The position numbers and the translations under genes are program-made. A stretch of DNA of 64,000 bases from an uncultured Methanosarcinales archaeon (lineage in GTDB: Archaea > Nanobdellota > Nanobdellia > Woesearchaeales > JABIAG01), in NCBI GenBank assembly GCA_964561995.1, contig CAZLQZ010000003.1:5056-69055 (forward strand), given 5' to 3'. Shown in pieces: positions 10,265-51,816 of the stretch (position 1 is its first letter; every line of letters begins with the position of its first letter). A model generated the notes under the pieces. It worked only from the letters and a program-made list of their open reading frames with translations, was not told the DNA's origin and did no database searches.

Positions 10265-10324
10265 TTTTATTTTTTAGTTTTATTTGTTTTTAATTGTTTT
10301 GATTTTAATTAACTATTATATAAT

Positions 10325-32800: not shown

Positions 32801-34860
32801 ATATAATAACTATCGTATTCAGTAGAATCATCAATAAAAGTAAAAGCTTCTAAATTTTTATGAAGTCCAGATTGTGATCCTGAACCTTGAAAATCATCTT
32901 CTTCAAACAAAAATATTTCGTCAATTTCAAATTTATCGTCCAACTTACTATTTATGTTGAATTTCTTTCTAATTATTTCAACTTCAGCAATTTTATCAGC
33001 ACACAAATCATTAATCCAATTAATTGCTAAACTGGGTTTATTATATGCATAATTTAATACATCATAATTATTAGTAGGGAATTCAGGATTAAAATCACTT
33101 GCAACATTACAAAGATGAGCTTCGGGTTCTGGAACAATTAAATTGCCAACATCAGCTTGGGACCCAGCATAATAGGTATTTATTGTCTCATCGGGTTCAG
33201 CATAAACATATTGAACTGCATTAGGATTATATATTAATTCGATTTCTAAATTTCTTGAAATGCTAAAAAATTTAATTTTCATTTCATTAGTAAAAGTATC
33301 AGGAAAAACTGGCAAAGCCAAACTAAACTTTCCGGGATTGGAATTAGATTCTGTTCCTGTTGTAATATATTCATCACTTTCAAGCGGCTTTCTAAAAAGA
33401 AATATATCATTTTTATCATAAACTTTAACATAAATTGGTGTATTTTCTAAAGCTGGATAAGTATCTTTTGGTTCTCCATTAATTTCTTCAACAATTTTAC
33501 CAAAAATAATTTTTGGTACTCCACCATCACAAGGAATATTTGAAAATTCAAAACTGTTTGAACTTCCACAACAAAATTGTCTTTCATATTCATCATAATT
33601 AATAAAGAAACCATCGGTTTGATTACCACAAAAACAATCATCAGTTGATACTTCGGAACCAAAAGTACAAGATTTAACATCATCAACTTTCAAATTACAA
33701 CAAACTTCACTTCCATCTTGACAAACAAGTCTGGTTTCATTTTCTCCACTTATACCTTCACATGTTGCTTTAGACATACAATGTCCGCCATTAATATGAT
33801 AATCATCACATTTGTCAACGCAAGTACCTAATTTACATCTAGCATTAGCATCACAATCGGTGTCTGCAATACATTCTGCATCATAACTACTTTTTTCTAA
33901 AGTAACTGTTTGTGAATAATCTTCATTAGAAGTATAAACTGCAGAATAAGTTTGATAACCAGATTTATAAAATTGAATTCCAACTTGAGTACTTGAAAGA
34001 ATTTGAATTGTTACTTCTCCGTCAGAATCAGTAATTCCAGAATCAGTACAACCAGAAATACAATTAACGGCAACATCATCTAATAATTCATCATCACTTT
34101 TATTTTGAACAGTAAATTCTACATCAACATAACTCAACTGAGAAGGTGTTAAACTTATTTGAATTGTTTCGTCTGAATCAGTTACAGTAATAGTTTGTTC
34201 TAAAGGTAAAAAACCTATAGCATCAAAAGTAAATCTATAACTTCCCTTGGGATGAGATATTTTAAGTAGGGCCAAATTATTATTTTCGTCATCATCACTT
34301 TGATCTTGCCAAGTACCAAAAACTGAAGAAGCAATACCATTAGAAGAAGTGATTTTTGAACCATCGTTTTTATTTAAAAATTTAAAAGTAATTGGTTCTT
34401 CAGGGATTTGATTACCGCATTGATAAAAATCATCAGATTCAAAAAAAACAGTATTTAAATAATCTGCAATTTGAGAAGATTTATTTTCACATTCAATTTT
34501 GGAAACTAATTCAATTACTTGTTCTTGGCCGCCATCAGTAGTAGTATAATAACAACAACCTTCTTGACACTGACCGCCAAGCGTAGGACTCGAACAAGCA
34601 GTTAATCTAAAAAAATTAGAACCAGAACAATCACTCCACGAACGATAAGTACAATAATCTTCACCCTGATCTAAAGGAATTAAACAACACCCATTATTAT
34701 CACAAGAACCTACTTCAGATGTATAGCCAGAACATGAAATTTCATCATCATCAACACATTGGCCGTCAATAATACAAACATCGGCAAATACTGGAAATAA
34801 GATAGTTAAGAATAAAACTAAAAATACCACTAAACCTAGCACTATCCCTCTTTTTTGCAT
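17812..34860 (-). CDS. Giant (5,682 aa) Cys-rich, beta-rich surface protein: N-terminal signal, C-terminal six-Cys modules, thrombospondin-type-3-like Ca-binding repeats, a single TM helix and a ~190-aa Pro/Lys-rich cytoplasmic tail; putative adhesin
   Basis: Uninterrupted 17-kb ORF. N-terminus '[29 protein letters not shown]' is either a Sec signal or a class-III-like signal. C-terminus: '...[46 protein letters not shown]...' (DxDxDG repeats), then TM '[23 protein letters not shown]', then '[22 protein letters not shown]...[12 protein letters not shown]'. GGTGA SD and TATA lie in the 89-nt upstream gap. Confidence 0.8.
   Translation of the reverse strand: [5682 protein letters not shown]
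18150..18330. repeat. Tandem ~33-36-nt DNA repeats encoding the '(N)KLPPL(xK)' repeats of the giant protein's cytoplasmic tail
   Basis: The + strand shows 'aaaggaggtaaattcttatttaaag / aaaggaggtaattttttatttaaag / ggggaagtttactcgttaaag / ggggcaatttatttaatgg'. The antisense ORF 17804..18388 in the track is an artefact of this region. Confidence 0.6.
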
Positions 34861-37901: not shown

Positions 37902-38156
37902 TTAATTAGATAAAGACTCTTTTAGTAATTTTTCTTTGATTTCTTTAGAATCAGAAAAATCCTTTTTTAATTGGGATTGTTTAATTAATTCATTTTGAAA
38001 TTCATCCATAACAGATTCATTTTTTGAAGTGATTTTTACAATTATTTCATCATTTTCCTTATCTAAAGAAAAATAAGCCTTATCCAATAATGAATTTGCC
38101 GCAGCAATTATTACATCCAAAGAATAAATGCTTGTTTTTAATATTATTTCATCCAT
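37902..38156 (-). CDS. Small conserved protein (84 aa), paralogue of 48891..49214; rSAM-associated
   Basis: 'NSLLDKAYFSLDKENDEIIVKITSKN...EFQNELIKQS' against 'NSYLDKAYFLIDGDKNELMVNFMPKN...EFKNQLINYS'. It is divergent from the rSAM fusion gene. Confidence 0.5.
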   Translation of the reverse strand: MDEIILKTSIYSLDVIIAAANSLLDKAYFSLDKENDEIIVKITSKNESVMDEFQNELIKQSQLKKDFSDSKEIKEKLLKESLSN

Positions 38157-38227
38157 TAAACATTACTTAATTGAAATATATTTAAAGATTTAGGAAATTT
38201 TATAATTACAAGAACATTATTTAGATT

Positions 38228-41173
38228 ATGAATGAGTTACAACTGTGTTTAACTAACAAATGTAATATAGGATGCAAATACTGCCATATTGATAAATCCA
38301 AAATAAAAAACATCAGTTTAAAAGTTGTTAAAAAAACAGTTAAAGAAGCTAAAAAGAACAACATTGAGTACATAAGATTAACTGGAGGAAGTATTTTTGA
38401 ACATGAAAATTTAAATGAGATTATTAATTATATTAAAGAAAGCAAAATTAAAATTATTCTTAACATATCTTCAAAAGAATTACACAAATTATATCATTTT
38501 TATGATATTCTTTTAATTTCTTACTTAGGTGTTGAAGATTTAAAGAAATTAGAACAAAAAGAAGTAATGGGTTGCATCGTATTTCAAAAAAAATGGTTAA
38601 ATCACATTAAAGAAGTAGTGAATTTTGTAGAAGATAATAATTTCGTAAGTTTCTTTTTTTTAAGAGATACAAATGAAAACAGTAAAGAATATTTTAACGA
38701 TTATTGTGAGTTTATTGAAAGAATATGTAGATTGACAGATAAAATTACTTTTGCTAATGCATTCCCATTATGTTACATTTCTTTTAACAATATAAAGTAC
38801 TGTTCGGGAAGTAAGTTTGATAATGGAAACAAAAGAATGTACATTACCCAAGAAGGGAACATTAAAGCGTCATCATATTCTAAAGTATTGGGAAATGTAT
38901 TTGAAGATGATTTAAAAGAAATTTGGCAAGATAATAAAAAGAAAATAAATGAAGACTTTGAAAAAATTGAATTGTGCAAAAATTGTAAAATTAAAGATAT
39001 TTGCAAGGGCGGGATTCATAATGATTTAATAAAAGAAAATGTTTTTGAAAACAATTTTAAAACAAAATTACAAAAAAAGATAATAAAAGTTCTACCAGAA
39101 ACAAATTATAATGCAGATTTAAGACAACTGTATTATGAAAACTCTGATTTTTTTATGAGGTATATTCCCTTTAATATTATGAAAAAAGGAATCACACCAG
39201 AAATAAATAATGAAAAACTATCACTATATGTTCATTTCCCATTTTGTAAAGGTTTTTGTAAATTTTGCAAAATTGAAAAGTTAGAAAAAAGTGAAGAATA
39301 CATTCAAGACCTATTAAAAGATATTGAAAATAATAAAGAACTTATTCAAAATAATAAAATTGAAGCAATATATTTTGGAGGCGGGACACCCCAATTAATG
39401 GGTTTAAATAATGCCAAAAAAATATTTGAAAAACTATTTTCATACGTTAAAGAAGTTAAAGAAGTAAGTTTTGAAACATTTCCTGGTTATTATGATAACG
39501 AATTGTTTAAATATATTAAAAAATATGTAAATAGAATTAGCATAGGAGTTCAATGTTTTAATGATGAAATTCTTAAAAAAATGAATAGAAATTCTTCTAA
39601 AAGAGAAATCATTGATTTTATAAAAAAAATTAAACAACTAGGTTTTGAAACAATTAACTTTGATGTGATTTATGGACTATTTATCAACAACAAAGAAGAA
39701 TTTGAAAAAGATTTTAGAGAAATTTTGGAATATAATCCTGATCAAATTACCTTACAACCCTTACATTTCATTAAAGAAATAAAATATGAAGGAAATATTG
39801 AAAATGAGATTGAGCTAAATAAAACTGCAAGAAAAATATTAAAAGAAAAAGGTTTTAATCAAACAACAGGTGAAGATTTTTCTAAAGGAAAAAAATTTCT
39901 ATATCAAAAAAATCTACTAAATGACAATAATATACTGGGGTTAGGAAATAAAACATTTAGCATAATTAACAACACCCACCTGTGGAAAGAAAATGGCATT
40001 AAAAGTTATAAATCCACCCGTTTTGACCAATTATATAGTCGGTTATTTCTTAAATCAAGAACTTTAAACTTAAATATAGAGGAATTAAACAGCTATGAAA
40101 TTAATTATAAGACAATGTTCTCAGACAGTTTAAAGTATTTATTAAAATTAGATTGGATAATAATTAAGGACAATATAATTACAATAACAAAAGAAGGAAA
40201 AGAGTATGTAGATTTAATATCAAACATATTATCATTAAGTAATTTGGACTATAAAAAATCAATAGATAAAATAAACAAAGTAAAAATAGTAGCCCCAGCA
40301 AGTAATTTGAAAGATGTAGAAGAATATGAAAAATTAAAAGTTGATGAACTATATATAGGTTTAATTGATTCTGATGATAATAAATGGCATCAAATAAATA
40401 AAAGAAATGAAAATAATGCCAATTTTACAAACATTGAAGATATTAAAAAAATTAAAGAAATAAACAAATATTCAGAAGTTTCATTGACTTTAAATGCTTC
40501 TTTTTATAATAAAAAAGGAATTAAAAAAGTTAAAAAACAAATTGAAGAAACTAAAAATTATGTTGATAACTATATAATAGCAGACCCTTCAATAATCCCT
40601 TTAGTTAAAAAAACAGGAAAAGGAATTATTTTAAGTTGTATTTCTGCCACCATGAATTCGCAAGCAGTTAAGTTCTTTAAAGGATTGGGAGTTAAAAAAA
40701 TAATTCTTCCAAGACATCTTAATATTAAAGAAATTAAAAAGATAATAAGTGAAAACAAAGACATGGAATTTGAAGTTATGATTCTTAACCAATTTTGCAG
40801 AAATGTAGATGGTCTTTGTTCAAGATGCCACATTCCAAATGGAGAATATGCATTATCTAATTGTTACATTCCTTACAAAAGCAAAGTAATTAAACTAAAA
40901 GAATGTAACGATGAAACTGTAAAAAAAGTCCATCAAAACATTGCAAATATATTAACTAAATTTAATCCAGAATGTGGAATTTGTTTTATTGAAGAATTTG
41001 AAAAATACGGAATTGATAGTTTGAAAATAGTCGGAAGAGATCACTTAACTGAAAAGAAAATAAAAGACGTTAAACTAATTAAAGAAATTTTGAAAGGTTT
41101 AACTAAAGAAGAATGTAAAGATAAATTTGAAGAAAACTTTGGATTTAAATGCAACAACAATTGTTATTATTGA
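38228..41173 (+). CDS. 981-aa triple-domain fusion: N-terminal radical SAM with a SPASM/twitch domain, central HemN/HemW-like radical SAM, C-terminal peptidase-U32-family domain
   Basis: Domain 1: 'CLTNKCNIGCKYCH' (CxxxCxxC), ending 'CKNCKIKDICKGGI' (SPASM-type CxxCx5CxGG). Domain 2: 'HFPFCKGFCKFCKI' plus 'IYFGGGTPQLM' (HemN GGGTP motif). Domain 3: 'KIVAPASNLKDVEEYEKLKVDELYIGL' resembles the U32 N-terminal 'LLAPAG..E.L..A...GADAVYLG'. TATA 'aaattttataatt' sits ~25 nt upstream, so probably leaderless. Confidence 0.7.
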   Translation: MNELQLCLTNKCNIGCKYCHIDKSKIKNISLKVVKKTVKEAKKNNIEYIRLTGGSIFEHENLNEIINYIKESKIKIILNISSKELHKLYHFYDILLISYLGVEDLKKLEQKEVMGCIVFQKKWLNHIKEVVNFVEDNNFVSFFFLRDTNENSKEYFNDYCEFIERICRLTDKITFANAFPLCYISFNNIKYCSGSKFDNGNKRMYITQEGNIKASSYSKVLGNVFEDDLKEIWQDNKKKINEDFEKIELCKNCKIKDICKGGIHNDLIKENVFENNFKTKLQKKIIKVLPETNYNADLRQLYYENSDFFMRYIPFNIMKKGITPEINNEKLSLYVHFPFCKGFCKFCKIEKLEKSEEYIQDLLKDIENNKELIQNNKIEAIYFGGGTPQLMGLNNAKKIFEKLFSYVKEVKEVSFETFPGYYDNELFKYIKKYVNRISIGVQCFNDEILKKMNRNSSKREIIDFIKKIKQLGFETINFDVIYGLFINNKEEFEKDFREILEYNPDQITLQPLHFIKEIKYEGNIENEIELNKTARKILKEKGFNQTTGEDFSKGKKFLYQKNLLNDNNILGLGNKTFSIINNTHLWKENGIKSYKSTRFDQLYSRLFLKSRTLNLNIEELNSYEINYKTMFSDSLKYLLKLDWIIIKDNIITITKEGKEYVDLISNILSLSNLDYKKSIDKINKVKIVAPASNLKDVEEYEKLKVDELYIGLIDSDDNKWHQINKRNENNANFTNIEDIKKIKEINKYSEVSLTLNASFYNKKGIKKVKKQIEETKNYVDNYIIADPSIIPLVKKTGKGIILSCISATMNSQAVKFFKGLGVKKIILPRHLNIKEIKKIISENKDMEFEVMILNQFCRNVDGLCSRCHIPNGEYALSNCYIPYKSKVIKLKECNDETVKKVHQNIANILTKFNPECGICFIEEFEKYGIDSLKIVGRDHLTEKKIKDVKLIKEILKGLTKEECKDKFEENFGFKCNNNCYY

Positions 41174-41217
41174 AATAATAATTCAATAAAAACTAGAAGA
41201 AATAAAGAAAAACCAAT

Positions 41218-42003
41218 ATGAAATACGGAATAAAAATTAACAACATCGAAGAAGATTTGAAAGGTCTAGACAAATATGATTTTGTTTATTTTGGAAGTGA
41301 ATTCTGTGAAAGAAAAATCCCGAATTTTGAATTTTGTAAAAAAGTATTTGAATTTTGTAATAAAAATAATAAAATACCCGTATTGTTGACTCCTTACTTA
41401 ACTGACAAGGGAATTAATACATTGAAAGATTTAATTTCAAGACTGCATATATTAAAAAAAGATTTTGAAATAACAATCAACGATTTTGGAATGATATACT
41501 TACTAAAAGAATTTCCAGAAATCAAAATTAATTGTGGAAGATTGTTAATTAAAATGAAGAAAGGACCAGAAATTATGTCTGGTGCATTAAATCAAAGTCC
41601 TGAAATGTTTAAAGATTCAAGTTTATCTAATAATTTATTCATAGATTTTATGAAAAATAACGGAATTAAAAGATTTGAAACAGATTTGCCACACCAAAGA
41701 TTAAACTTACCCAATGAAAAAATTACTGCTTATTTGGGAAATATAGTGATTAGCACAACAAGAAGATGTAATTTTATAGATTGTGAAAAAGAAATGCAAT
41801 ACCAAATTAAAGATTGTGAAAAAGAATGTTTAAAATATTGTGTTGTTAAAAATACCGAATTTCATGATGAATTAATATATGTAATGGGTAATGCTGAATT
41901 TTTAAAAAGTGATAAGGATAAAAACAGTATTAACAACGATAATATACTTGAAGGAAAATTTGACCGAATTGTTGAATTTCAAAAAATCACTAAAGTTCTT
42001 TAA
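41218..42003 (+). CDS. Stand-alone U32-family-like protein with Cys clusters, 261 aa
   Basis: 'KYDFVYFGSEFCERKIPNFEFCKKVFEFC' resembles the U32 'ADAVY.GGE.F' region. A second cluster is 'RRCNFIDCEKEMQYQIKDCEKEC'. The call is motif-level only. Confidence 0.45.
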   Translation: MKYGIKINNIEEDLKGLDKYDFVYFGSEFCERKIPNFEFCKKVFEFCNKNNKIPVLLTPYLTDKGINTLKDLISRLHILKKDFEITINDFGMIYLLKEFPEIKINCGRLLIKMKKGPEIMSGALNQSPEMFKDSSLSNNLFIDFMKNNGIKRFETDLPHQRLNLPNEKITAYLGNIVISTTRRCNFIDCEKEMQYQIKDCEKECLKYCVVKNTEFHDELIYVMGNAEFLKSDKDKNSINNDNILEGKFDRIVEFQKITKVL

Positions 42004-42959: not shown

Positions 42960-45900
42960 ATGGCTTTAAATAAGAAATTGTTTTTGTTATTAATAGTTCT
43001 AATAGTATCTTCATTAAGTGTTAGCGCATATTATAGGGAACTGGGACAAGGTTGCGTTGCAGGAGATTATTATGTTCCCTGTACTGGAGAATGTGAATGG
43101 CAATGTGATGGAAACGGTAACCTCGTTAAAATCTGTCAACAAGCACACGGATGGTGTTTTAATGATGATGGCAACACATGTTATTCTTGTGATTATGTTA
43201 GTGACGCAAATGAAGTTTGTGGAACAATTAATTGTTCTAACTTAAATTATAATGATGAAAGAAGTCAAATGTGTAGCTCGTTAGGAAATTTACTTGAAAC
43301 ACAGCACATATTTTCTTGTAACTCGGCTTTAAAAATGTGTAAAGAAGAACGAAGTGGAGACCCAGTTGAAGAATATTCAGGTGAATGTTGTCCAGCTCAA
43401 GGAATCATTAGTCAAGGATCTGGAACTATTTCCTCAGGACAATTTGATTCTTCATTTGATATGTATATTGATAAAAACCCATCAAATAATGACGAAATTA
43501 ATGGTTTAACTAATGAATTTCATAATGTAATTAATGCAAATAGATTAAAAGTATATTTTGAAGTTAGTTTTGATTCAACAGATAGTGATCAATATCCTTC
43601 TTCAGTTACATTAAGGGCTAGCGGTGACAAAACAACTAATGTGTTCCATCATTCTGCTGAATCATCAACAGGAACATTAAGTTTTCAAGGAATTTTGCCG
43701 AGTGGAACTAAAGAACTTAAAGTAATAAAAGATTGTCCAATTGATGATGGTAATAAAAATTGTCCTCTTGTTTCTTTTTCAGTATCTGTAGAATGTACTG
43801 AATGTGAAGACAAAGCATGGGCTTTTGATTATGATGGAGATGGTTATTATTCATTATTTACTGAAAATTCAAATGATTGTTTACCTCCTTATGAATCAAA
43901 CAGTTGTGAAGGTTTATTTCCTCTTGGTACTTGTTCTGGACCGTGTGTGGCATGTGAAAGTTCGATTTTCTGGACTTCTGTAACTTCAGATGAATTTAAC
44001 AACAAAATAGAAAAAGGATGTGAAGCTTCTGCAATTAGTCAAGATTGTTTAGATGCAGATAATGATGTATTAGATAATCCCGAGACACTTTATTGCGAAG
44101 ATAAAGATAACGATAAATATGGCAATCCAAATAAATGTGAATTAAGAAGTAGTTTAACATTAAGTGAAATCAACTCAAGAAGTATGAAAAAGATTTATGA
44201 TTTAATTGATAAAAATGATTGCGATGATAACTCTGTAACAGGAGCTTCTAAAAACCCAAACTCAACTTATGTATTAGATAATGACAGAGATGAAAATTGG
44301 GGAAGTTCAACAAAAAGTTGTAATGATCCGGATGGAATTGCAAACAAATGGCAATTGTATACTGATCAAGACTTTGATTGTGATGATGATGATGAATTTG
44401 TTTCATTTCCTAAATCTTGCAATTGTTATGATTATCAAGAAGGTTATACTTTAAGTGATAATTATAATAATGATTATTTTTGTTACAACATTACTAAAGA
44501 ATCTAGTACTCTTGCTATAGATGCAAACTCAGAATTTGAAATTAAAACAACACCTTCAAATTTGAAATGGGTTTTAGCAACAAAAAGAAAAGATCAAAAT
44601 GGTGCACAAATAGATTTTGCATGTCCACTAAATACTTGTCCTTTAACTTTAACAACAGAAAAGAAGTGTGTTGAAGTTGGAACCTTTTGGTCAGATGATG
44701 GAAGAGCAGAAATGGGTAACAATCTTTGTGAATTAAAAGATGAAAATGCAGAGTGGAGCTCAAGAATTGCAAAAGCAAGCTCTTTTTTAATTGCAGTAGG
44801 TGAAGCATCCAAAGAAGATTTTGTGGTTCATTGTGATGATTTTGATAACATTAAACATACTTATCAAGCATCCGAATTCCCAAAACCGGAAGATTTTGGT
44901 GTGGCAGATCTTGAAATTGAATGGCAAACATTAACTAATGAACCTGGCAACGTAGGAGAAGGATGTGTTTTAATAATTAATAAAGATTATACTAATGATA
45001 TTTCTTCAGGAAATAAACCAGGAGAAGATTCTCAAATTGTTGCAATAGCAGTACCATTTGTTCAAGATATTGCAGATAACTATCTAAGAATTGATTTTGA
45101 TGACCCTCGTCCAGAAGGTAACTGGTTAGTTCAAGACAGTTTATATGTTCATGAACCCTACAAATTGTTATTTATTTTAGAAGGACAAGGGGCAAACTCA
45201 GACTCATTAAAGGGCTGGTTTAATGAGATAATACAACCAAATAATGCCTTTTTAAACATGATAAGATTTTTAAGAAGTCCATTAAAACACCTTCAAGAAA
45301 TAATGAGTGAAGATCCAAGAATATCATTTTTTCAAGAAAACTCTTTTTTTAAATTTAACAAAATGTTTTTAGGAAAAGAATCAACAACCTATTTTTATTC
45401 AATATTAGAAAAACAATCTAATGATAATAATAAACTTACTGTGAAAATAACAAATCCAGAATATAATGAAGCAGAAAATGAAAAACTAAAAAAATTCATT
45501 TCAGATTCTTGTAATCCTGATAAAGGTTTTTTAAATAATCAAAATTTTGATTATTGTGCAGGAGTTGATAGTATAGAGGGAAACTTTGAAAATACAAAAA
45601 CTACAAACCTGGTTGGAGATGTTGTTGGTTTAACAATAGACGACCTCGATAATTCTGAAGGAAATTATTTATTTAATTATTTAAGCAGAAAAATTAGATT
45701 GCAAAATAATGACGAAGGAACTGCCAAGTTTTACACTTCTCAAAAAGAATGTACTGGTACAGACTTAAACACTTGTACTGAAAAGACTTGTTTTGAAGCA
45801 GTTGATTGTAGCGTAGGATTATGTATGTATGATGAAATAACTGTTTGTGATGATGGAACAGATGGTTGTTGTCCTTATGGTTGTAGCTTTGAAGATAACG

Positions 45901-47132
45901 ATTTAGATTGTGAAGCAGTCAATGAAGTAATTGGTTTTAATGTGAGATATGATAATTCATGTAATGACGATGAAGTTACGCTTCTTAGTATGTCGGATTC
46001 AGTTAATGGTCATGCTTCCTTACCTAATTCACCACAACAATTTAGCAATAAGATTTGTTTAAAACCTGACAAAGGAACTTTTACTGTTAATTCCGGTACA
46101 AGTTGTGCGGGTACAGAAGTTATTTCACTATATCAAACATCAGACAGCCACATCGGAATAAATGGACCACAAAAAATATGTCTTAGTCATTCACAATATT
46201 ATGTTTCTTGTTTAGTTGGAACAATTGAAGAATGCAATAGTTACAATATAATTACAAGTTTAACTGGTGAAACTAACGCTCACATTGGTGAAGAAAAATC
46301 ATATGATACTAAAATATGTTGTAAATTGATAGAAGCACAACCAGCAAAAAGATGTTATTCAAACTCAGATTGTGATGATACCAAATATTGTAATGGTCAA
46401 GAAACTTGTAACTCACAAACAAAAACATGTAATCCAGTTACACCTGTTGATTGCTCAAATAATAACATAGATGAAATTGAAGAATGTGATTATAATCCTG
46501 ACGGAATCAGCGCAACCATGGATTCTTTCCCTGCTTTCACTTCACAATGTGATGAAAGTATTGATGCATGTACTTCGACTCCTATTGAAATAACAAGCAC
46601 ATGCGATACTTCTTGCGATGCTCAATGTGTTGCAAATGCTGATTGTGATGATGAAGATGATTCCACTACAGATATATGTGAAAATGATTGTGTTTGTTCA
46701 AACATGAATACAGTTCATTTAATAGATGGTTGGAACTCATTATCTTTTCCAAGTAATACTCAAATAACAGTAAATGAACTTGAAGAACAATGTCCAGAGG
46801 TTACAGGTTCAATATGGTATTTTGAATCCAGTTCATACAAAGAAGAAGAAGTGAAATTTAACCCTGAAAACGGCTATTGGATTTATTCAAAATCAGAATG
46901 TGACTTTAAAATGATTTTTGATTATGATTTCGAGGATGTTAGTTTAGAATCTGGTTGGAACTTTATTGGATCTGATTCTCAATTAGAAAGTCTTAATTCT
47001 ATTTATAGACAAGAAATTGTTGGTCCAGGATGGGTTTACAATGGTGAAACATACGAAAGTACTGAAGATTTAATACCTGGAAAAGGAACTTGGGTAACAA
47101 CAGCAGGTGGAAGTCCACCGTCGAGTCCTTAA
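42960..47132 (+). CDS. Giant (1,390 aa) secreted Cys-rich surface protein with a duplicated ~60-aa W/Y-rich C-terminal module
   Basis: Sec signal 'MALNKKLFLLLIVLIVSSLSVSA|YY'. More than 90 Cys. C-terminal repeats 'DGWNSLSFPS...GSIWYFE...NGYWIY' and 'SGWNFIGSDS...GPGWVYNGETY...GTWVT'. No C-terminal TM. Confidence 0.75.
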   Translation: MALNKKLFLLLIVLIVSSLSVSAYYRELGQGCVAGDYYVPCTGECEWQCDGNGNLVKICQQAHGWCFNDDGNTCYSCDYVSDANEVCGTINCSNLNYNDERSQMCSSLGNLLETQHIFSCNSALKMCKEERSGDPVEEYSGECCPAQGIISQGSGTISSGQFDSSFDMYIDKNPSNNDEINGLTNEFHNVINANRLKVYFEVSFDSTDSDQYPSSVTLRASGDKTTNVFHHSAESSTGTLSFQGILPSGTKELKVIKDCPIDDGNKNCPLVSFSVSVECTECEDKAWAFDYDGDGYYSLFTENSNDCLPPYESNSCEGLFPLGTCSGPCVACESSIFWTSVTSDEFNNKIEKGCEASAISQDCLDADNDVLDNPETLYCEDKDNDKYGNPNKCELRSSLTLSEINSRSMKKIYDLIDKNDCDDNSVTGASKNPNSTYVLDNDRDENWGSSTKSCNDPDGIANKWQLYTDQDFDCDDDDEFVSFPKSCNCYDYQEGYTLSDNYNNDYFCYNITKESSTLAIDANSEFEIKTTPSNLKWVLATKRKDQNGAQIDFACPLNTCPLTLTTEKKCVEVGTFWSDDGRAEMGNNLCELKDENAEWSSRIAKASSFLIAVGEASKEDFVVHCDDFDNIKHTYQASEFPKPEDFGVADLEIEWQTLTNEPGNVGEGCVLIINKDYTNDISSGNKPGEDSQIVAIAVPFVQDIADNYLRIDFDDPRPEGNWLVQDSLYVHEPYKLLFILEGQGANSDSLKGWFNEIIQPNNAFLNMIRFLRSPLKHLQEIMSEDPRISFFQENSFFKFNKMFLGKESTTYFYSILEKQSNDNNKLTVKITNPEYNEAENEKLKKFISDSCNPDKGFLNNQNFDYCAGVDSIEGNFENTKTTNLVGDVVGLTIDDLDNSEGNYLFNYLSRKIRLQNNDEGTAKFYTSQKECTGTDLNTCTEKTCFEAVDCSVGLCMYDEITVCDDGTDGCCPYGCSFEDNDLDCEAVNEVIGFNVRYDNSCNDDEVTLLSMSDSVNGHASLPNSPQQFSNKICLKPDKGTFTVNSGTSCAGTEVISLYQTSDSHIGINGPQKICLSHSQYYVSCLVGTIEECNSYNIITSLTGETNAHIGEEKSYDTKICCKLIEAQPAKRCYSNSDCDDTKYCNGQETCNSQTKTCNPVTPVDCSNNNIDEIEECDYNPDGISATMDSFPAFTSQCDESIDACTSTPIEITSTCDTSCDAQCVANADCDDEDDSTTDICENDCVCSNMNTVHLIDGWNSLSFPSNTQITVNELEEQCPEVTGSIWYFESSSYKEEEVKFNPENGYWIYSKSECDFKMIFDYDFEDVSLESGWNFIGSDSQLESLNSIYRQEIVGPGWVYNGETYESTEDLIPGKGTWVTTAGGSPPSSP

Positions 47133-47141
47133 TTAAATTTC

Positions 47142-47384
47142 TTAATAAGAACTATGATTTGCATGTCTAATAAAATTTTCTTCATAATTAGCAGTCCAAT
47201 CACTAGTTTCAACAGCAGAAACACTTGTTGCAAATAAAGTAGTAGCAGCAATTAAACTTAAAGAAACTACGGCCTTTTTACTTATTTTTCCTTCTTCGTT
47301 TGAAAGAAACATACCGACCTTCTTTTTAATCTTAGGCAAATTCATAATAGTTAAAATAATAATATTATATTTAAACTTTTCCAT
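47142..47384 (-). CDS. Small ORF immediately downstream of the SPASM rSAM: hydrophobic leader plus 23-aa polar tail; candidate precursor or secreted peptide
   Basis: 'MNLPKIKKKVGMFLSNEEGKISKKAVVSLSLIAATTLFATSVSA|VETSDWTANYEENFIRHANHSSY'. It overlaps the rSAM stop by 14 nt. Confidence 0.4.
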   Translation of the reverse strand: MEKFKYNIIILTIMNLPKIKKKVGMFLSNEEGKISKKAVVSLSLIAATTLFATSVSAVETSDWTANYEENFIRHANHSSY

Positions 47385-48735
47385 CTAACCATTGCATAAA
47401 TACTTCTTTAGACTTTAAATCTCGCAACTTTTCAAAAATATAATCAAATTGAGCCATATGTAATTTGCACCAATTGCTAGTAGGAATACAACCTATTATA
47501 GACCCCTGGTCTGCATAATTTAAAACAGGACATACACCACAAAACGGCTTATAAACACAACTATTACAAACATAAGAGTCATTTATTGAACTACTAATGA
47601 TTGTTTTAGCTTTGTCTGAAGTTGTTAAATTCTTTAATTTATCTTTACAACTTCCAATACAAAACAAATCATCATTTAACATCCTGCCTTCATCGCAAGT
47701 ATAAATTTTACCATCATAATTGTATAAAACTTGCCCAATTATTGCACCACAGGGACTTCTTAAATCCAAATAATTAGGTTCCTTACCAAATATCTTTTGA
47801 AGAATTATTAATGCTTTTCTTTCTTTAATATTAATACCCTCAATATTCTTTTGAATTATATAATCAACAGACTTTTTCCAAAATTCAATGAATTCTTCAA
47901 CACTATAATAAATATCAACATTATCTCTTGCATCACCTAATCTGTTAAGATTTCTTAAATGGATAGATAATATATTATTTTTGATATATTCATCAATAAT
48001 TTCTTTATAGTAATTTAATGAGTCTTTAGTTACTGTAACTAAAGCATCAATATGATTGATTTTTTTAATCCATTTTATAGTTTCACTATATTGGAAACGG
48101 TTTTTATTATGAATTAATTCTGGACCATCTAATGAAGTACAAATTCCCACATTATTTTTCACTAAAAAATCTAATTTTTCATCAGTCATCAAAACAAGAT
48201 TTGATACTAATGAGAATTTGATATTTTTATCTTGTTTTCTTTTGTTTACTTCATCAATAATATGTTTTAATACTTCGAAATTCAATAATGGTTCCCCACC
48301 TTGAAACTCAATATTTAAACTGTTAGAATTTGATTGAAAAATTAAATCAATTACTTTGTTAGCAGTTTCAACAGTCATATCATAATTTGCTTCATTAACT
48401 GGTTTAGAACTTGCATGACAATATACACAATTGTGATTACATCTTAAAGATAAAATAATTATATGTAAAGATGGACCATTGAACAAAAATTGTTTTGATT
48501 TTCTTAAATCTTTTTTGATTTGTTCTTTATTATTGTCAGTTATAATTAATCCTTTTTCTTCTAATTGATTCAAAGTTTCACTAGAGAGATTATTTAACTC
48601 ATTTTTATCTATAAACATCCAACTACCTTGATCTGAAGTTAACAAATAATCGTCTTTTAAATTACCTTTTACATATAATTTACTTTTATAATTCTTTATC
48701 ATTTTGTAGTGCCAACACATAATTGCAAAATTCAT
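47371..48735 (-). CDS. Radical SAM/SPASM-domain peptide-maturase-like protein with a ~80-aa N-terminal extension (possible RRE)
   Basis: 'LRCNHNCVYCHAS' (CxxxCxxC), 'IEFQGGEPLLN', and a C-terminal Cys-rich SPASM region 'CNSCVYKPFCGVCPV...GCIPTSNWC'. The true start may be an internal Met (M12 or M40). Confidence 0.75.
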   Translation of the reverse strand: MNFAIMCWHYKMIKNYKSKLYVKGNLKDDYLLTSDQGSWMFIDKNELNNLSSETLNQLEEKGLIITDNNKEQIKKDLRKSKQFLFNGPSLHIIILSLRCNHNCVYCHASSKPVNEANYDMTVETANKVIDLIFQSNSNSLNIEFQGGEPLLNFEVLKHIIDEVNKRKQDKNIKFSLVSNLVLMTDEKLDFLVKNNVGICTSLDGPELIHNKNRFQYSETIKWIKKINHIDALVTVTKDSLNYYKEIIDEYIKNNILSIHLRNLNRLGDARDNVDIYYSVEEFIEFWKKSVDYIIQKNIEGINIKERKALIILQKIFGKEPNYLDLRSPCGAIIGQVLYNYDGKIYTCDEGRMLNDDLFCIGSCKDKLKNLTTSDKAKTIISSSINDSYVCNSCVYKPFCGVCPVLNYADQGSIIGCIPTSNWCKLHMAQFDYIFEKLRDLKSKEVFMQWLDGKV

Positions 48736-48922
48736 AAGGTATTAATTCATTTTCCTGTTTTAAAATAATAATTAAAATATCATTTTCAAAACTTGCCTCT
48801 ATAAAATCTGAAAAATCTTTAATTCCTTGATTTATTGCTTCTTTATCGTAAAATAAAGCATTGAATTTAATTTTATATTTATTATCTTGTTTACAAATCA
48901 TCTTCAAATAATACCTCTTCAA
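48686..48922 (-). CDS. Small hypothetical ORF (78 aa) between the 107-aa protein and the rSAM
   Basis: An ORF overlapping the rSAM's annotated 5' end; no motifs; coding status uncertain. Confidence 0.25.
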   Translation of the reverse strand: MKRYYLKMICKQDNKYKIKFNALFYDKEAINQGIKDFSDFIEASFENDILIIILKQENELIPYEFCNYVLALQNDKEL

Positions 48923-49214
48923 AATAATCAGGATTGTTAGTTAAAACCGTTCTTGCAACAATTGTTTCTTTCAAATTTTTAGTTTTATCAAACTCATTGT
49001 AATAAAAAGAATAATTGATTAATTGATTTTTAAATTCTAATTCTAAATTTGATTCTTTTTTATTTTTAGGCATAAAATTAACCATTAATTCGTTTTTATC
49101 CCCATCAATTAAAAAATAAGCTTTATCTAAATATGAGTTAATAGCATTTCTAACTACTTTAATTGGAAAAATTTCTAAATTTACTTTAAATTGGAAAAAC
49201 ATGATTAAAATCAA
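48891..49214 (-). CDS. Small conserved protein (107 aa), paralogue of 37902..38156; first gene of the rSAM cassette
   Basis: Alignment with the 84-aa protein (see 37902..38156). Both sit next to SPASM rSAM genes. Confidence 0.5.
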   Translation of the reverse strand: MILIMFFQFKVNLEIFPIKVVRNAINSYLDKAYFLIDGDKNELMVNFMPKNKKESNLELEFKNQLINYSFYYNEFDKTKNLKETIVARTVLTNNPDYFEEVLFEDDL

Positions 49215-49279
49215 ATTTATGACTATTTAAAGATATTCTTACCGAAATATATAAATACTAATAATTCATAAAGCAAAGT

Positions 49280-50029
49280 ATGCAAGTAATTATTGAAAAA
49301 AAAGCTAAATTTACAATGATTTTACTATCTTTAATTTTAATAGTTTTATTAGCAAACATCTCATTATCTAGTGAACCAGCATTTTATAATACCTTACAAC
49401 AAGTGGTAAGAAGCTCTCAAGAACTTGTAAGTGTTGATTTAAACGAGAATAATATAATTGACAGGGCTGAATTAGCCTATAGCTTTTCTGGAGGAAATTT
49501 TGAAAATACACCTGGAATATGTCCAAAAGAACATCTTTTAAAGGGTTTTCTTTCAACAGGTGAACCATATTGTGTTGTTGCAAAATGGAATTGTAATGTT
49601 GATGAAGATTCTAGAAGTTTTGTTTGCTTTTTTAGCGAGAGCGAAAGTGCAGATTTTGAGGTTATTGAAGTTGTTTTTTCAGCTGCAAAGAACACTTTAA
49701 ATTTCCCAGAAGAGGTTAGATTTTTAGAAAGCTTTGAAACCGAATCATTTAGTACAACTTTAAATTATTGCAAAAGTTCAGATACAAGTGTTGAAGCCGA
49801 TGAAATTTGTTTAACTGAAATTAATTTAGTAGGTTCAAATTTAATTATCGATGCAAAATATACTAGTATTGGAGCGTCATTTATTACCGACTTGGAAATG
49901 TCGGGTTCTTTAAATGGCAAATCATTCTCAGGATCAAGAGTTTTTGACGAATCAGCAAGAGGAACAGACAAACAAATACAATTTATATTTGACCTGGAAG
50001 AAAGTTCTAGACGCCACGGCGGGTGGTAG
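49280..50029 (+). CDS. Secreted protein (249 aa) with an N-terminal EF-hand-like loop and a Cys pair; 3' end disrupted by a GC-rich insertion
   Basis: Signal 'MILLSLILIVLLANISLSSEPA'. 'DLNENNIIDRAELAY...GICPKEH...GEPYCVV'. The C-terminus is 'SSRRHGGW*', encoded by the GC-rich 50006-50026. Confidence 0.6.
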   Translation: MQVIIEKKAKFTMILLSLILIVLLANISLSSEPAFYNTLQQVVRSSQELVSVDLNENNIIDRAELAYSFSGGNFENTPGICPKEHLLKGFLSTGEPYCVVAKWNCNVDEDSRSFVCFFSESESADFEVIEVVFSAAKNTLNFPEEVRFLESFETESFSTTLNYCKSSDTSVEADEICLTEINLVGSNLIIDAKYTSIGASFITDLEMSGSLNGKSFSGSRVFDESARGTDKQIQFIFDLEESSRRHGGW

Positions 50030-50068
50030 AACAAATAAACAAGTACAATTTACATTTAACTTAGAATA

Positions 50069-50479: not shown

Positions 50480-50515
50480 CATAAAACTTATAATTAAAGA
50501 AATTTTTAATATTCT

Positions 50516-51460
50516 ATGATAAATCTAATTATAATATCAATACTTGGAATTATTATTAGTTATCAAGATTTTAAAAATGGAAAAATTAGAAATAAGTGGA
50601 TAATTTTAGGCATTATAGCAGGATTAATTATCAATTATTCATATTTTTTATATGATTTTTTAAATCATGTTTTTAATATAACCATATTGTATAGTTTCTT
50701 ATTAAATTCCTTAATTACCATCTTTCTAGGTTATTTATTATGGCATTTTAAATTTTGGAGTGCTGGTGATGGAAAACTGTTCATAATGTTTTCATTTTTA
50801 TTACCATTAGAATTTTACAAAAGCTTTTTTCCTTCATTTACAATCATATTTAATTCTATTGTTCCAATAGGAATTGTTCTTTTTTTAATGAGTCTTAATA
50901 AAAATAATTTTATAAATAGTAAAAAAGATTTAATTAAAGAATTTAATTTACTAAATATAATTGAAAGTTTGATTTTGATTGTTGGATTTTATTGGGGTAT
51001 TTCCCAAACTTTATTTTTTATTAATGAAGTATTAAAATACTTCTTTGTTGCTCTATTGGTTATATTCTTAAAACACAAATTTAATAAAATAATTTATGCA
51101 GGGATTGTTTTAGTTATTATTAGAACCTTTTTTGAAAATATCCTTAGTTTTGATTTTATAATTCAAACAATAATAATATTTGTTATTTTTCATGCTACTA
51201 GAAGCATAATAATCCCATTAACAAATAATCAATATGTTAAAAAAACAAAAATTGAAAAATTAAAACCAGGCATGTATTTAGAAAAATGGTCATCTAGCTT
51301 AAATACTGAAGATATAAAAGAATTAAACAAAAAAAATCTAAAAGAAGTAAATGTTGTTGAAACTATGCCTTTTGCAATTTATCTTTTTATTGGAACACTT
51401 TTAACCATCATATTACAAACTGACTTGTTATCTTTTTTAATAAAGTTTTTTTTTAGTTAA
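50516..51460 (+). CDS. Archaeal type IV prepilin peptidase (A24 family, FlaK/PibD/EppA-like)
   Basis: Polytopic membrane protein. First catalytic Asp in 'SYQD18FKNGKIRNK' (cf. FlaK D18, D-x5-I-P/R-N). Second in 'WSAGD85GKLF' (GxGDxK motif). The spacing fits the family. Confidence 0.7.
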   Translation: MINLIIISILGIIISYQDFKNGKIRNKWIILGIIAGLIINYSYFLYDFLNHVFNITILYSFLLNSLITIFLGYLLWHFKFWSAGDGKLFIMFSFLLPLEFYKSFFPSFTIIFNSIVPIGIVLFLMSLNKNNFINSKKDLIKEFNLLNIIESLILIVGFYWGISQTLFFINEVLKYFFVALLVIFLKHKFNKIIYAGIVLVIIRTFFENILSFDFIIQTIIIFVIFHATRSIIIPLTNNQYVKKTKIEKLKPGMYLEKWSSSLNTEDIKELNKKNLKEVNVVETMPFAIYLFIGTLLTIILQTDLLSFLIKFFFS

Positions 51461-51778: not shown

Positions 51779-51816
51779 AATTATAATAAAATATACTTTA
51801 GAATATAAAAAGCTAG

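What the first reader, a model, noticed from the sequence alone, without database searches (positions are those of the whole stretch)
38228..42003. Unusual triple fusion: rSAM-SPASM plus HemN-like rSAM plus U32 domain in one 981-aa protein, followed by a second U32-like gene
Two complete CxxxCxxC radical-SAM cores sit in one polypeptide. The first ends in a SPASM-type Cys motif 'CKNCKIKDICKGG'. The second has the HemN/HemW 'GGGTP' signature. The C-terminal ~300 aa start with the U32-family N-terminal signature (xxAPAxNxxxxxExxKLxxDELYIG). U32 proteins are now understood as Fe-S-containing O2-independent hydroxylases (UbiU/V, TrhP/RlhA) rather than proteases. A stand-alone U32-like protein with two Cys clusters follows immediately. 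This architecture is not a standard one. Its position between the pilin or giant-protein operon and another giant Cys-rich surface protein hints at anaerobic post-translational chemistry on these proteins or their glycans or lipids, such as thioether formation, hydroxylation or methylation.
Basis: partly seen in the sequence, partly recalled or inferred. Interest (0 to 1): 0.7.

Follow-up and report, generated by a model that had tools for sequence, protein, structure and literature searches.

The report
Fused peptide-maturase module of archaeal HxS system
The 981-residue protein is a real, one-off fusion of three enzymes (two radical-SAM enzymes and an oxygen-independent hydroxylase of the U32 type). 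Together with a hidden U32-like partner next door, it most likely tailors a small His-x-Ser-repeat peptide encoded 5 kb away, not the giant surface proteins beside it.

Summary
ORF 38228-41173 encodes rSAM/partial-SPASM, HemN-like rSAM and Peptidase_U32 domains. The 261-aa protein that follows has no Pfam or NCBIfam match, but it has a U32/CutC-type TIM-barrel model and a UbiV-like four-Cys motif.

The interpretation changes. In about a dozen related DPANN archaea the same parts form a three-gene cassette: double rSAM, U32, partner. Only this genome fuses genes 1 and 2, in frame, and independent assemblies show the same fusion.

The cassette's constant companion is an archaeal His-Xaa-Ser (HXS-type) operon: A24 peptidase, HxsD, small HxsD-like protein, HxsB and an HxsA-like peptide ending in ...HSSY. 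The window holds all of these at 47142-51460, plus an extra HxsD paralog at 37902-38156. It has no HxsC.

Other fusions tie the parts together: U32+HemN-like, and HxsC-like+rSAM+HemN-like. Elsewhere, the partner+U32 pair sits inside quinohemoprotein amine dehydrogenase operons of anaerobes, where aerobes use the O2-dependent Trp hydroxylase QhpG.

Best reading: an accessory tailoring module that replaces HxsC and adds C1 transfer and O2-independent hydroxylation to the peptide. The chemistry is inferred, not shown. This is a new variant of a known kind.

The parts
38228..39079 (+). Domain 1 of the 981-aa protein (aa 1-284): radical SAM with a partial SPASM/twitch-type C-terminal Cys region. 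It takes the place of HxsC.
   Evidence: CxxxCxxC at C12/C16/C19 and CKNCKIKDICKGG. Pfam SPASM 25.2 bits and Fer4_12. TIGR04085 27.7 bits. It is 31% identical (E 4e-30) to the stand-alone 337-aa rSAM that sits directly upstream of the HxsA-like gene in L007. No HxsC-like hit anywhere in the 64-kb window.
39140..40258 (+). Domain 2 (aa 305-677): HemN-like (class C type) radical SAM.
   Evidence: CKGFCKFC, 'YVHFPFC' and GGGTP. NCBIfam STM4012, HemN, HemW, ChuW and HemZ at 120-157 bits, all below cut-off. PDB sequence hits: HemN 1OLT E 8e-25 and methyltransferase NocN 9p2u E 9e-12.
40280..41173 (+). Domain 3 (aa 685-981): Peptidase_U32 domain of UbiU type. It is a separate gene in all relatives.
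   Evidence: Pfam PF01136 at 90.3 bits. UbiU and TrhP at 56-60 bits. Conserved C857-X6-C864-X14-C879-X36-C916, compared with UbiU CX6CX16CX38C. Junction analysis.
41218..42003 (+). 261-aa partner protein: an unannotated family, a U32/CutC-type TIM barrel with a UbiV-like four-Cys motif.
37902..38156 (-). Extra HxsD paralog (84 aa), divergent from the fusion gene.
   Evidence: TIGR03976 38.9 bits (cut-off 50) and NF038315 26.7 bits. Precomputed Pfam PF27806:HxsD. 33-36% identity to the HxsD proteins of the window, L002 and L004, 25% to that of L007.
47142..47345 (-). HxsA-like precursor peptide (67 aa from MNLPK; the ORF extends to 47384): basic leader, hydrophobic segment, C-terminal ...RHANHSSY.
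   Evidence: Weak NF038309 HxsA3 hit, 24 bits. Homologues in L002, L004, L007 and L009 share P.IKKK..FL..EEGKISK and end in HxS repeats ...SHSSY. My HXSA HMM scores 101 bits.
47371..48735 (-). HxsB radical SAM/SPASM maturase.
   Evidence: TIGR03978 at 445 bits, cut-off 370.
48686..48901 (-). Small HxsD-like protein (71 aa, '...EFCNYVLALQNDKEL'), missed by the ORF list restricted to 80 aa or more.
   Evidence: Translation. Homologous to the 66-77-aa genes between HxsD and HxsB in L002, L004, L007 and L011.
48891..49214 (-). HxsD.
   Evidence: TIGR03976 at 40.2 bits, cut-off 50. Orthologues carry Pfam PF27806.
50516..51460 (+). Peptidase_A24 (prepilin-peptidase type) membrane protein, a conserved member of the archaeal HXS-type operon.
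   Evidence: Pfam PF01478 at 32.9 bits, cut-off 26.5. Orthologues lie next to HxsD in L002, L004, L007 and L011 and in many metagenome loci.

Best explanation
The 981-aa protein plus the 261-aa protein is an accessory tailoring module of an archaeal His-Xaa-Ser (HXS-type) peptide-maturation system.

Proposed pathway, all steps inferred:
1. The substrate is the HxsA-like peptide at 47142-47345. It has a leader, a prepilin-like cleavage region 'SKKA|VV', a hydrophobic helix and a C-terminal ...RHANHSSY.
2. The small HxsD-type proteins hand the peptide to the radical-SAM enzymes.
3. HxsB and the N-terminal rSAM/partial-SPASM domain carry out radical H-abstraction or cross-linking in the HxS motif. 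This domain stands where HxsC normally is.
4. The HemN-like domain adds or rearranges a one-carbon unit on an sp2 carbon of a His or Tyr ring.
5. The U32 domain pairs with the 261-aa UbiV-like partner, like UbiU-UbiV, to hydroxylate an aromatic residue without O2.
6. The A24 peptidase removes the leader, and the modified peptide ends up membrane-anchored or on the surface.

Fusing three enzymes in one chain couples these steps on one bound peptide.

Shown here: the domain identities, the fusion, the partner's fold and Cys motif, the gene linkage and the independent fusions. Inferred: the substrate, the order of steps and every chemical reaction.
For: Separate-gene cassette in relatives: double rSAM (about 700 aa), U32 (303-316 aa, 4-nt overlap) and partner (258-260 aa).

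The cassette lies 0-8 kb from HxsB and HxsD in every locus with enough flank: the window, L009, L002/L010, L004 and L011.

L007 has all four enzymes as separate genes interleaved with A24, HxsD, HxsD-like, HxsB and HxsA. There the rSAM-SPASM orthologue sits directly upstream of HxsA.

Stand-alone homologues of the N-terminal rSAM domain (scored with my 'RSAMN' HMM) lie inside HXS operons in L092, L131 and L147.

Fusions as Rosetta stones:
- P0188 = HxsC-like + RSAMN + HemN-like, followed by U32 and partner.
- P0178 = U32 + HemN-like.

The distribution is complementary. No HxsC-like gene is found in the window or in cassette-bearing loci other than L006, whereas 27 of 39 other archaeal-type HxsB loci have HxsC-like rSAMs.

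The partner+U32 pair occurs in peptide or protein-maturation settings elsewhere. At least 13 qhp operons have the form qhpADCB-partner-U32-(FE). Aerobes there need the O2- and FAD-dependent Trp dihydroxylase QhpG (PMC7876137).

U32 chemistry: UbiU-UbiV is a heterodimer with one 4Fe-4S cluster per subunit and performs O2-independent aromatic hydroxylation with prephenate as the O donor (PMC6747719; PMC10990095).

HxsD binds HxsC, and HxsA is the modified and cleaved effector in E. coli (PMC13128918).
Against: No experiment exists for any archaeal member.

Seen from the HxsB side, the link is rare: only 1 of 39 well-flanked metagenome loci carries U32+partner.

In the window the cassette and the HXS operon are 5 kb apart, on opposite strands, with two unrelated genes between them.

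In the window, L001, L002 and L004 the cassette is also consistently divergent from surface or pilus operons, so synteny alone cannot separate the two candidate substrates.

The window's HxsA-like peptide has only one or two HxS units and scores far below the HxsA3 cut-off.

The N-domain is not an HxsC orthologue by sequence.

Direct hydroxylase activity of U32 proteins has not been demonstrated in vitro. DPANN archaea usually lack the shikimate pathway that makes prephenate (my own knowledge; not testable from 64 kb).
Confidence: 0.62

Rival explanations
1. One reading: the fused enzyme post-translationally modifies the neighbouring pilins or giant Cys-rich surface proteins (or their glycans or lipids) by thioether formation, hydroxylation or methylation.
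For: The cassette is divergent from a giant-protein or pilus operon in the window, L001/L009, L002 and L004. These operons include T2SSE, T2SSF, pilin-like genes and a 5682-7512-aa protein. A 1390-aa Cys-rich protein lies downstream on the same strand, and its homologue is also nearby in L001/L009.
Against: That neighbourhood is absent in L007, where the flank holds DNA polymerase and Cdc6, and in L170. It is not seen at L011 either, although there only the side facing the HXS genes was read. The HXS genes or HxsC-type fusions persist in all three. The giant-protein homologues are found only in the closest relative. SPASM and twitch rSAMs with an HxsD-type helper normally act on short precursor peptides.
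Confidence: 0.15
2. A small-molecule or cofactor pathway unrelated to peptides, for example anaerobic tetrapyrrole or quinone tailoring. This would combine an AhbD/NirJ-like rSAM, a HemN/HemW-like rSAM and a UbiU/UbiV-like ring hydroxylase.
For: The best NCBIfam names for the stand-alone N-domain orthologue are AhbD, NirJ and MoaA (66-86 bits). For the middle domain they are HemN, HemW and ChuW. The only well-studied U32 pair acts on a quinone precursor. Two UbiE-type methyltransferases lie near the cassette in L001.
Against: All these scores are 3-6 fold below the family cut-offs, so they reflect generic SPASM and HemN-fold similarity. There are no other tetrapyrrole or quinone genes in the loci. 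The linkage to HxsB, HxsD, HxsA and A24 and the fusion to an HxsC-like domain have no explanation under this reading. DPANN archaea generally lack such pathways (my own knowledge).
Confidence: 0.08
3. RNA modification: a TrhP/RlhA-like O2-independent hydroxylation of tRNA or rRNA, coupled to radical-SAM methylation.
For: The top NCBIfam name for the U32 domain is TrhP (60 bits). U32 proteins with known roles outside quinone synthesis act on RNA.
Against: The score is far below the cut-off of 534. The Cys spacing is of UbiU type, and an obligate UbiV-like partner is present. The genomic company consists of peptide maturases and a peptidase. The family is patchy even among close relatives, which would be unexpected for a core translation function.
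Confidence: 0.05
4. The triple fusion is an assembly or sequencing artefact, or a dead pseudo-fusion, with no functional meaning.
For: Only one genome shows it.
Against: The junction is in frame with an 8-residue linker, and ATG has been replaced by GTA, which requires several substitutions. The same product is called on three contigs, including an independent Logan assembly. All catalytic Cys motifs are intact. Other lineages made analogous fusions.
Confidence: 0.03

Closest known systems
Bacterial HXS (His-Xaa-Ser) antiphage system: HxsA, HxsB, HxsC, HxsD (Li et al., Nat Commun 2026, PMC13128918)
   Same: An HxsB equivalog is present (445 bits). HxsD-type small proteins are present. The precursor ends in HxS repeats. 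Maturation depends on rSAM enzymes and includes N-terminal processing. In E. coli, HxsD binds the second rSAM (HxsC), and here an HxsD paralog sits beside the fusion gene.
   Different: The host is archaeal (DPANN), whereas 99.7% of described systems are in Pseudomonadota. There is no HxsC; an unrelated rSAM/partial-SPASM domain stands in its place. Added components are a HemN-like rSAM, a U32+partner pair, a second small HxsD-like protein and a dedicated A24 peptidase. HxsA is about 67-85 aa with a prepilin-like leader and no peptidoglycan-binding domain. An antiviral role is untested.
UbiU-UbiV O2-independent hydroxylase (U32 family; PMC6747719, PMC10990095)
   Same: Two adjacent genes encode a U32 protein and a divergent second subunit. 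The Cys motif of the U32 domain (CX6CX14CX36C) is of UbiU type. The partner's motif (CXnCX15CX3C) has its first Cys far upstream, as in UbiV. The TIM-barrel fold is shared.
   Different: Neither protein reaches the UbiU or UbiV equivalog thresholds, and the partner is not detected by any U32 model. There is no UbiT and no quinone pathway. The U32 domain carries additional conserved Cys residues (C804, C867, C919, C963, C975, C979). The presumed substrate is a peptide residue.
Quinohemoprotein amine dehydrogenase maturation: QhpD rSAM and QhpG FAD Trp dihydroxylase (PMC7876137)
   Same: A SPASM rSAM acts on a small peptide or subunit and an aromatic residue is then hydroxylated. Homologues of the 261-aa partner together with a U32 gene sit inside qhp operons of anaerobes and denitrifiers.
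   Different: The substrate (QhpC) and the product (cysteine tryptophylquinone) differ. That U32+partner replaces QhpG is my inference from gene order only. The pairs are only about 22-30% identical to the window's.
HemN-like / class C radical SAM enzymes (HemN 1OLT; methyltransferase NocN 9p2u)
   Same: The CxxxCxxC motif sits in a 'YxHxPFC' context, the GGGTP motif is present, and the whole domain aligns, including the C-terminal helical part.
   Different: It falls below every named equivalog (HemN, HemW, ChuW, HemZ, STM4012). The Pfam HemN_C domain is not detected. It is embedded between two other enzymes. The reaction is unknown.
Peptide-derived cofactor systems with a C-terminal Tyr (mycofactocin MftA/B/C, PQQ PqqA/D/E); comparison from my own knowledge
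   Same: These have a short precursor with a conserved C-terminal aromatic residue, a small chaperone protein, a SPASM rSAM and later oxidative tailoring.
   Different: No sequence membership was found: MftC and PqqE models score only 20-66 bits on the N-domain family. This is an analogy only.

Membership tests
Radical SAM superfamily (N-terminal domain) | CxxxCxxC cluster motif and a SAM-binding GGE-type motif | tested here: met
   C12/C16/C19 are conserved in all full-length homologues, and 'RLTGG' is conserved. Pfam Radical_SAM and Fer4_12 hit.
SPASM domain (N-terminal domain) | Full seven-Cys pattern, including CX2CX5CX3C, that binds two auxiliary clusters | tested here: not met
   Pfam SPASM (25.2 vs 21.5) and TIGR04085 (27.7 vs 27) only just pass. 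The fourth Cys of the motif is Ile263, and only C182, C192, C250, C253 and C259 are conserved. This is a partial SPASM or twitch-like domain, probably with one auxiliary cluster.
HxsC (TIGR03977 / HxsC4 NF038332) | Sequence membership of the rSAM paired with HxsB | tested here: not met
   HxsC is not among the best 25 NCBIfam hits of the N-domain. BLASTP to an HxsC4-like protein from L006 gives E 0.046. It does occupy HxsC's operon position in L007.
HemN-like (class C) radical SAM | YxHxPFCxxxCxxC, GGGTP, and alignment to HemN across the barrel | tested here: met
HemN / HemW / ChuW / STM4012 equivalogs | Score above the curated equivalog cut-off | tested here: not met
   Scores against cut-offs: 126 vs 325, 123 vs 205, 122 vs 400 and 157 vs 380 bits.
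Peptidase_U32 (PF01136) Fe-S hydroxylase type | Pfam domain plus the conserved four-Cys motif | tested here: met
   90.3 bits against a cut-off of 22.4. C857-X6-C864-X14-C879-X36-C916 is invariant in four orthologues, compared with the UbiU motif.
UbiU / TrhP equivalogs | Score above the equivalog cut-off | tested here: not met
   56 vs 440 bits and 60 vs 534 bits.
U32 hydroxylase activity | O2-independent, prephenate-dependent hydroxylation and Fe-S binding | not testable with these tools
   Requires biochemistry. Even for UbiU/V the in vitro activity has not been shown.
UbiV-like second subunit (261-aa protein) | U32-type TIM barrel, CXnCX12CX3C-type four-Cys motif, and a gene adjacent to a U32 gene | tested here: inconclusive
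His-Xaa-Ser (HXS) system | HxsB equivalog | tested here: met
   TIGR03978 at 445 bits against 370.
His-Xaa-Ser (HXS) system | HxsD | tested here: inconclusive
   TIGR03976 scores 40.2 and 38.9 bits, below the cut-off of 50. Pfam PF27806:HxsD is on record for the 84-aa protein and for orthologues.
His-Xaa-Ser (HXS) system | HxsA with His-Xaa-Ser repeats | tested here: inconclusive
   The window peptide ends in HAN-HSS-Y and scores 24 bits on HxsA3 (cut-off 65). Orthologues carry 3-5 HxS units and the same leader.
His-Xaa-Ser (HXS) system | Antiphage function that blocks DNA entry | not testable with these tools
   Known only for E. coli. PADLOC 2023 has no HXS models.

The most novel reading that the evidence does not exclude
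U32 proteins paired with this unannotated UbiV-like partner are O2-independent hydroxylases of protein or peptide aromatic residues, which would be a substrate class not yet described for U32. In DPANN archaea they would work with two radical-SAM domains to build a hydroxylated, C1-modified (possibly quinone-like or metal-binding) His/Tyr motif at the C-terminus of a pilin-like HxS peptide. In anaerobic bacteria the sister pairs would replace the O2-dependent QhpG in making the cysteine tryptophylquinone cofactor of QHNDH.
Probability: 0.3. Interest if true: 0.85.

Novelty: new variant of a known kind. Interest (0 to 1): 0.62.

Why it matters
Known U32 substrates are quinone precursors and RNA bases. 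None of my searches of the held library, nor the 2024 review I read, links U32 to peptide maturation or to QHNDH. I ran no search on U32 with the HXS system.

The fusion here, together with two independent fusions elsewhere, acts as a Rosetta stone. It connects U32 hydroxylases, HemN-like rSAMs and HXS-type peptide maturases.

It also exposes an unannotated protein family, the 261-aa partner. I found 133 relatives among GTDB species genomes, and the family appears to be the missing second subunit of many U32 enzymes.

The work yields directly testable hypotheses on two questions:
- how strict anaerobes hydroxylate aromatic residues, including how they make cysteine tryptophylquinone without O2;
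- what archaeal HXS-type systems do, given that the bacterial ones are antiphage barriers.

Tried and rejected
- Direct sequence tests that the 261-aa protein is U32 all failed: BLASTP against the U32 domain, hhalign of four-sequence profiles (E 0.17) and a PDB profile search. The case rests on fold, Cys motif and context.
- A PDB profile search with the U32 family found nothing, not even 5d88. The N-domain has no PDB sequence relative.
- I tested whether distant partner homologues (Thauera, Sterolibacterium, Bathyarchaeia and others) are simply UbiV. NCBIfam gives no hit.
- I tested whether the N-domain is an HxsC orthologue. It is not.
- The afdb50 fold library was unavailable.
- The search for related loci with the 38-sequence partner alignment failed for lack of conserved stretches, so I used the four-sequence alignment instead.
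- PADLOC gave only irrelevant weak hits.
- Most other window proteins have no Pfam family, so the surface-operon context could not be characterised further.
- I did not test for QhpG absence beyond the gene list of L005, and I could not examine the shikimate pathway of the host genome.

Full report
**1. What is in the sequence**

The window is AT-rich (about 23-32% G+C). Its proteins are most similar to those of Woesearchaeota, Pacearchaeota and Nanobdellota MAGs, so it is a DPANN-type archaeal contig.

ORF 38228-41173 (+) encodes 981 aa. It contains two CxxxCxxC motifs (C12/16/19 and C340/344/347), 'CKNCKIKDICKGG' (250-262), 'GGGTP' (384) and 'KIVAPAS' (686).

Pfam finds Radical_SAM twice, SPASM (just above threshold) and Peptidase_U32 (90 bits).

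NCBIfam places the middle domain among HemN-like enzymes: STM4012, HemN, HemW, ChuW and HemZ score 120-157 bits, all well below their equivalog cut-offs. The C-terminal domain falls near TrhP and UbiU at 56-60 bits, also far below cut-off. The HemN-like domain aligns to E. coli HemN (1OLT, E 8e-25) and to the class C methyltransferase NocN (9p2u).

The SPASM region is incomplete. The fourth Cys of CX2CX5CX3C is Ile, and only five auxiliary Cys are conserved.

**2. The fusion is real but unique**

A word-indexed search found about a dozen homologues of 685-727 aa (plus one N-terminally truncated, 617 aa). They cover only the first 69% of the protein, that is, the two radical-SAM domains.

In their contigs the U32 domain is a separate gene of 303-316 aa that overlaps the stop of the double-rSAM gene by 4 nt. 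A 258-260-aa gene follows it.

At the junction, relatives read '...NLDYKLK(K)*' and then 'MKIVAPAS'. The window reads '...NLDYKKSIDKINKVKIVAPAS' in frame, with GTA where the ATG was. Several substitutions are needed for this, so it is not a one-base sequencing error.

The same 981-aa product is called on three contigs, including an independent Logan assembly.

An exhaustive HMMER pass over 1.84 billion cluster representatives found no other protein that spans residues 1-981. None of the 120 best relatives of the U32 domain is fused to anything but the usual U32 C-terminal domain.

**3. The 261-aa neighbour**

No Pfam or NCBIfam model matches it. BLASTP and a shallow profile-profile comparison with the U32 family are not significant.

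A profile search found 41 homologues, all unannotated. In an alignment of 38 of them, four Cys are invariant: C30, C184, C200 and C204. This gives CXnCX15CX3C.

UbiV binds its 4Fe-4S cluster through CXnCX12CX3C, with the first Cys far upstream. Most U32 proteins have CX6CX15CX3/4C (PMC6747719).

In GTDB species genomes, 133 relatives were found. Of the 80 loci kept, 62 have a U32 gene directly adjacent on the same strand.

The U32 domain of the 981-aa protein has C857-X6-C864-X14-C879-X36-C916, the UbiU pattern (CX6CX16CX38C). The pair therefore looks like a UbiU-UbiV-type heterodimer. The 261-aa protein is a cryptic, UbiV-like member of the U32 fold. It fails the sequence membership tests, so I treat this as probable rather than proven.

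**4. What travels with the cassette**

- HxsD, 48891-49214 (-);
- a 71-aa HxsD-like ORF, 48686-48901 (-);
- HxsB, 47371-48735 (-), TIGR03978 at 445 bits against a cut-off of 370;
- an HxsA-like peptide, 47142-47345 (-), ending in ...RHANHSSY;
- a Peptidase_A24 membrane protein, 50516-51460 (+);
- an extra HxsD paralog, 37902-38156 (-), directly upstream of and divergent from the fusion gene.

The same set lies 0-8 kb from the cassette in every related locus with enough flank: L009, L002/L010, L004 and L011.

In L007 all four enzymes are separate genes interleaved with the HXS genes. The order is U32, partner, A24, HxsD, HxsD-like, HxsB, then, on the opposite strand, the rSAM-SPASM gene followed by the HxsA-like gene, and finally the HemN-like rSAM gene on the plus strand. 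The stand-alone rSAM-SPASM is 31% identical (E 4e-30) to the window's N-domain. It sits directly upstream of the HxsA-like gene.

The HxsA-like peptides share a leader (P.IKKK..FL..EEGKISK), a hydrophobic stretch preceded by SK[KHNR][AS], and HxS repeats ending in SHSSY.

**5. Fusions as independent evidence**

P0188 (1086 aa) is HxsC-like + N-domain-like rSAM + HemN-like. On its contig it is followed by U32 and a partner homologue. P0178 (705 aa) is U32 + HemN-like. Different lineages have thus fused different pairs of the same components, which argues that they act together and belong with HxsC-type enzymes.

**6. Reciprocal test**

I searched metagenome contigs with DPANN-type HxsB and found more than 555 relatives. 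The core operon is A24 - HxsD - small HxsD-like - HxsB - HxsA.

Among 39 loci with at least 8 kb of flank:
- 27 carry HxsC-like rSAMs, often several in tandem;
- 4 carry an N-domain-like rSAM;
- 4 carry a HemN-like rSAM;
- only 1 carries U32+partner (the L007 contig).

The window has no HxsC-like gene in 64 kb. The cassette is therefore a rare accessory module of archaeal HXS-type systems. It is found where HxsC is missing. The one exception seen is L006, which has both.

**7. What is known about the relatives**

In E. coli, HXS is an antiphage system. HxsB and HxsC mature HxsA by N-terminal cleavage and a +8 Da change in the last HxS repeat. HxsD binds HxsC. Of the described systems, 99.7% are in Pseudomonadota (PMC13128918).

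UbiU-UbiV hydroxylate aromatic rings without O2, using prephenate as the O donor (PMC6747719, PMC10990095). A 2024 review lists only quinone and RNA substrates for U32 enzymes. Searches for U32 together with QhpG, precursor peptides or RiPPs found nothing relevant.

**8. A side result that bears on mechanism**

Homologues of the partner plus a U32 gene are embedded in quinohemoprotein amine dehydrogenase operons, in the form qhpA-D-C-B-partner-U32-F-E or at the operon end. The hosts include Geopsychrobacter, a Desulfuromonadaceae MAG, Thauera, Sterolibacterium, Rhodocyclaceae and Heliobacteriaceae MAGs. At least 13 loci show this.

Aerobic QHNDH biogenesis needs QhpG, an FAD- and O2-dependent enzyme that dihydroxylates a Trp of QhpC bound to the rSAM QhpD (PMC7876137). 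The L005 gene list shows no flavin monooxygenase.

The simplest reading is that the U32 pair is the anaerobic substitute. That would make a peptide-bound aromatic residue a U32 substrate. This is inference from gene order only.

**9. Most likely mechanism**

Confidence is about 0.6 for the system assignment and lower for the chemistry. The steps are:
- The HxsA-like peptide is presented by HxsD-type proteins.
- HxsB and the N-terminal rSAM domain perform radical chemistry on the HxS motif.
- The HemN-like domain transfers or rearranges a C1 unit on an sp2 carbon, as class C enzymes do.
- The U32 domain with the 261-aa partner hydroxylates a His, Tyr or Trp ring without O2.
- The A24 peptidase removes the prepilin-like leader.

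Fusion of three enzymes would channel one bound peptide through these steps.

Caveats:
- No archaeal member has been studied.
- The cassette also keeps a conserved position beside surface or pilus operons in four loci.
- The window's HxsA has very few HxS units.
- U32 hydroxylase activity has never been reconstituted.
- The source of prephenate in a DPANN cell is unclear.

**10. Verdict**

This is a new variant of a known kind, namely an HXS-type rSAM peptide-maturation system expanded by a HemN-like rSAM and a UbiU/UbiV-like hydroxylase pair, with a unique triple fusion. It also exposes an unannotated partner family. Interest is moderately high, because it opens testable routes to a new substrate class for U32 enzymes.

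Noticed in passing
L005 2513-11215; L088 5330-14062; L075 2931-11762; also L066, L069, L078-L081, L083-L085: Homologues of the 261-aa partner plus a U32 gene are embedded in quinohemoprotein amine dehydrogenase (qhp) operons of anaerobes and denitrifiers. Aerobes there use the O2-dependent Trp dihydroxylase QhpG. This is a candidate O2-independent route to cysteine tryptophylquinone, and no paper with both QhpG and U32 was found in the literature search.
   Followed up: partly
window 48686-48901 (-): A 71-aa HxsD-like ORF ('...EFCNYVLALQNDKEL') overlaps the end of HxsD and the annotated start of HxsB. The ORF list restricted to 80 aa or more does not show it. It is conserved between HxsD and HxsB in most archaeal-type loci.
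   Followed up: yes
window 50516-51460 (+): A Peptidase_A24 (prepilin-peptidase family) membrane protein is a conserved member of archaeal HXS-type operons. The HxsA-like peptides have an SK[KHNR][AS]-hydrophobic junction that resembles a class III (prepilin) signal.
   Followed up: partly
L101 1-6411; L102, L112, L121, L150: Archaeal-type HXS loci often carry arrays of three to six tandem HxsC-like radical-SAM genes next to one HxsB.
   Followed up: no
L027 3132-6845 (+): One open frame of 1237 aa in a Woesearchaeota MAG combines a B12-binding rSAM, a GT1 glycosyltransferase, a partner-family domain and a class I methyltransferase. It lies next to HxsD and HxsB. It could be a real mega-fusion or merged genes.
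   Followed up: no
window 58573-59811 (-): A further B12-binding radical-SAM protein (412 aa) lies in the window. It is weakly similar to the N-terminus of the L027 giant ORF.
   Followed up: no
window 38001-42000 and 48001-52000: G+C drops to 23-25% over both the cassette and the HXS operon, against 28-30% in the flanking surface-protein genes. This could reflect amino-acid composition or a shared foreign origin.
   Followed up: no
L024, L028, L037 (about 9950-10770) and nine similar loci: A subclade of the partner family, mostly in Thermodesulfobacteriota, stands alone without a detectable U32 neighbour. In L028 and L037 a gene whose N-terminus looked to me like a DAHP synthase lies about 2 kb upstream. 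That identity was not verified.
   Followed up: no
P0186, P0187, P0191 (representative library): Proteins of 900-1044 aa consist of two HemN-like radical-SAM domains in tandem.
   Followed up: no
window 17812-34860 (-) and 42960-47132 (+): A 5682-aa and a 1390-aa Cys-rich secreted protein flank the region. The former ends in thrombospondin-type-3-like Asp-rich repeats and a Lys/Pro-rich tail. Homologues were found only in the closest relative (L001/L009).
   Followed up: no
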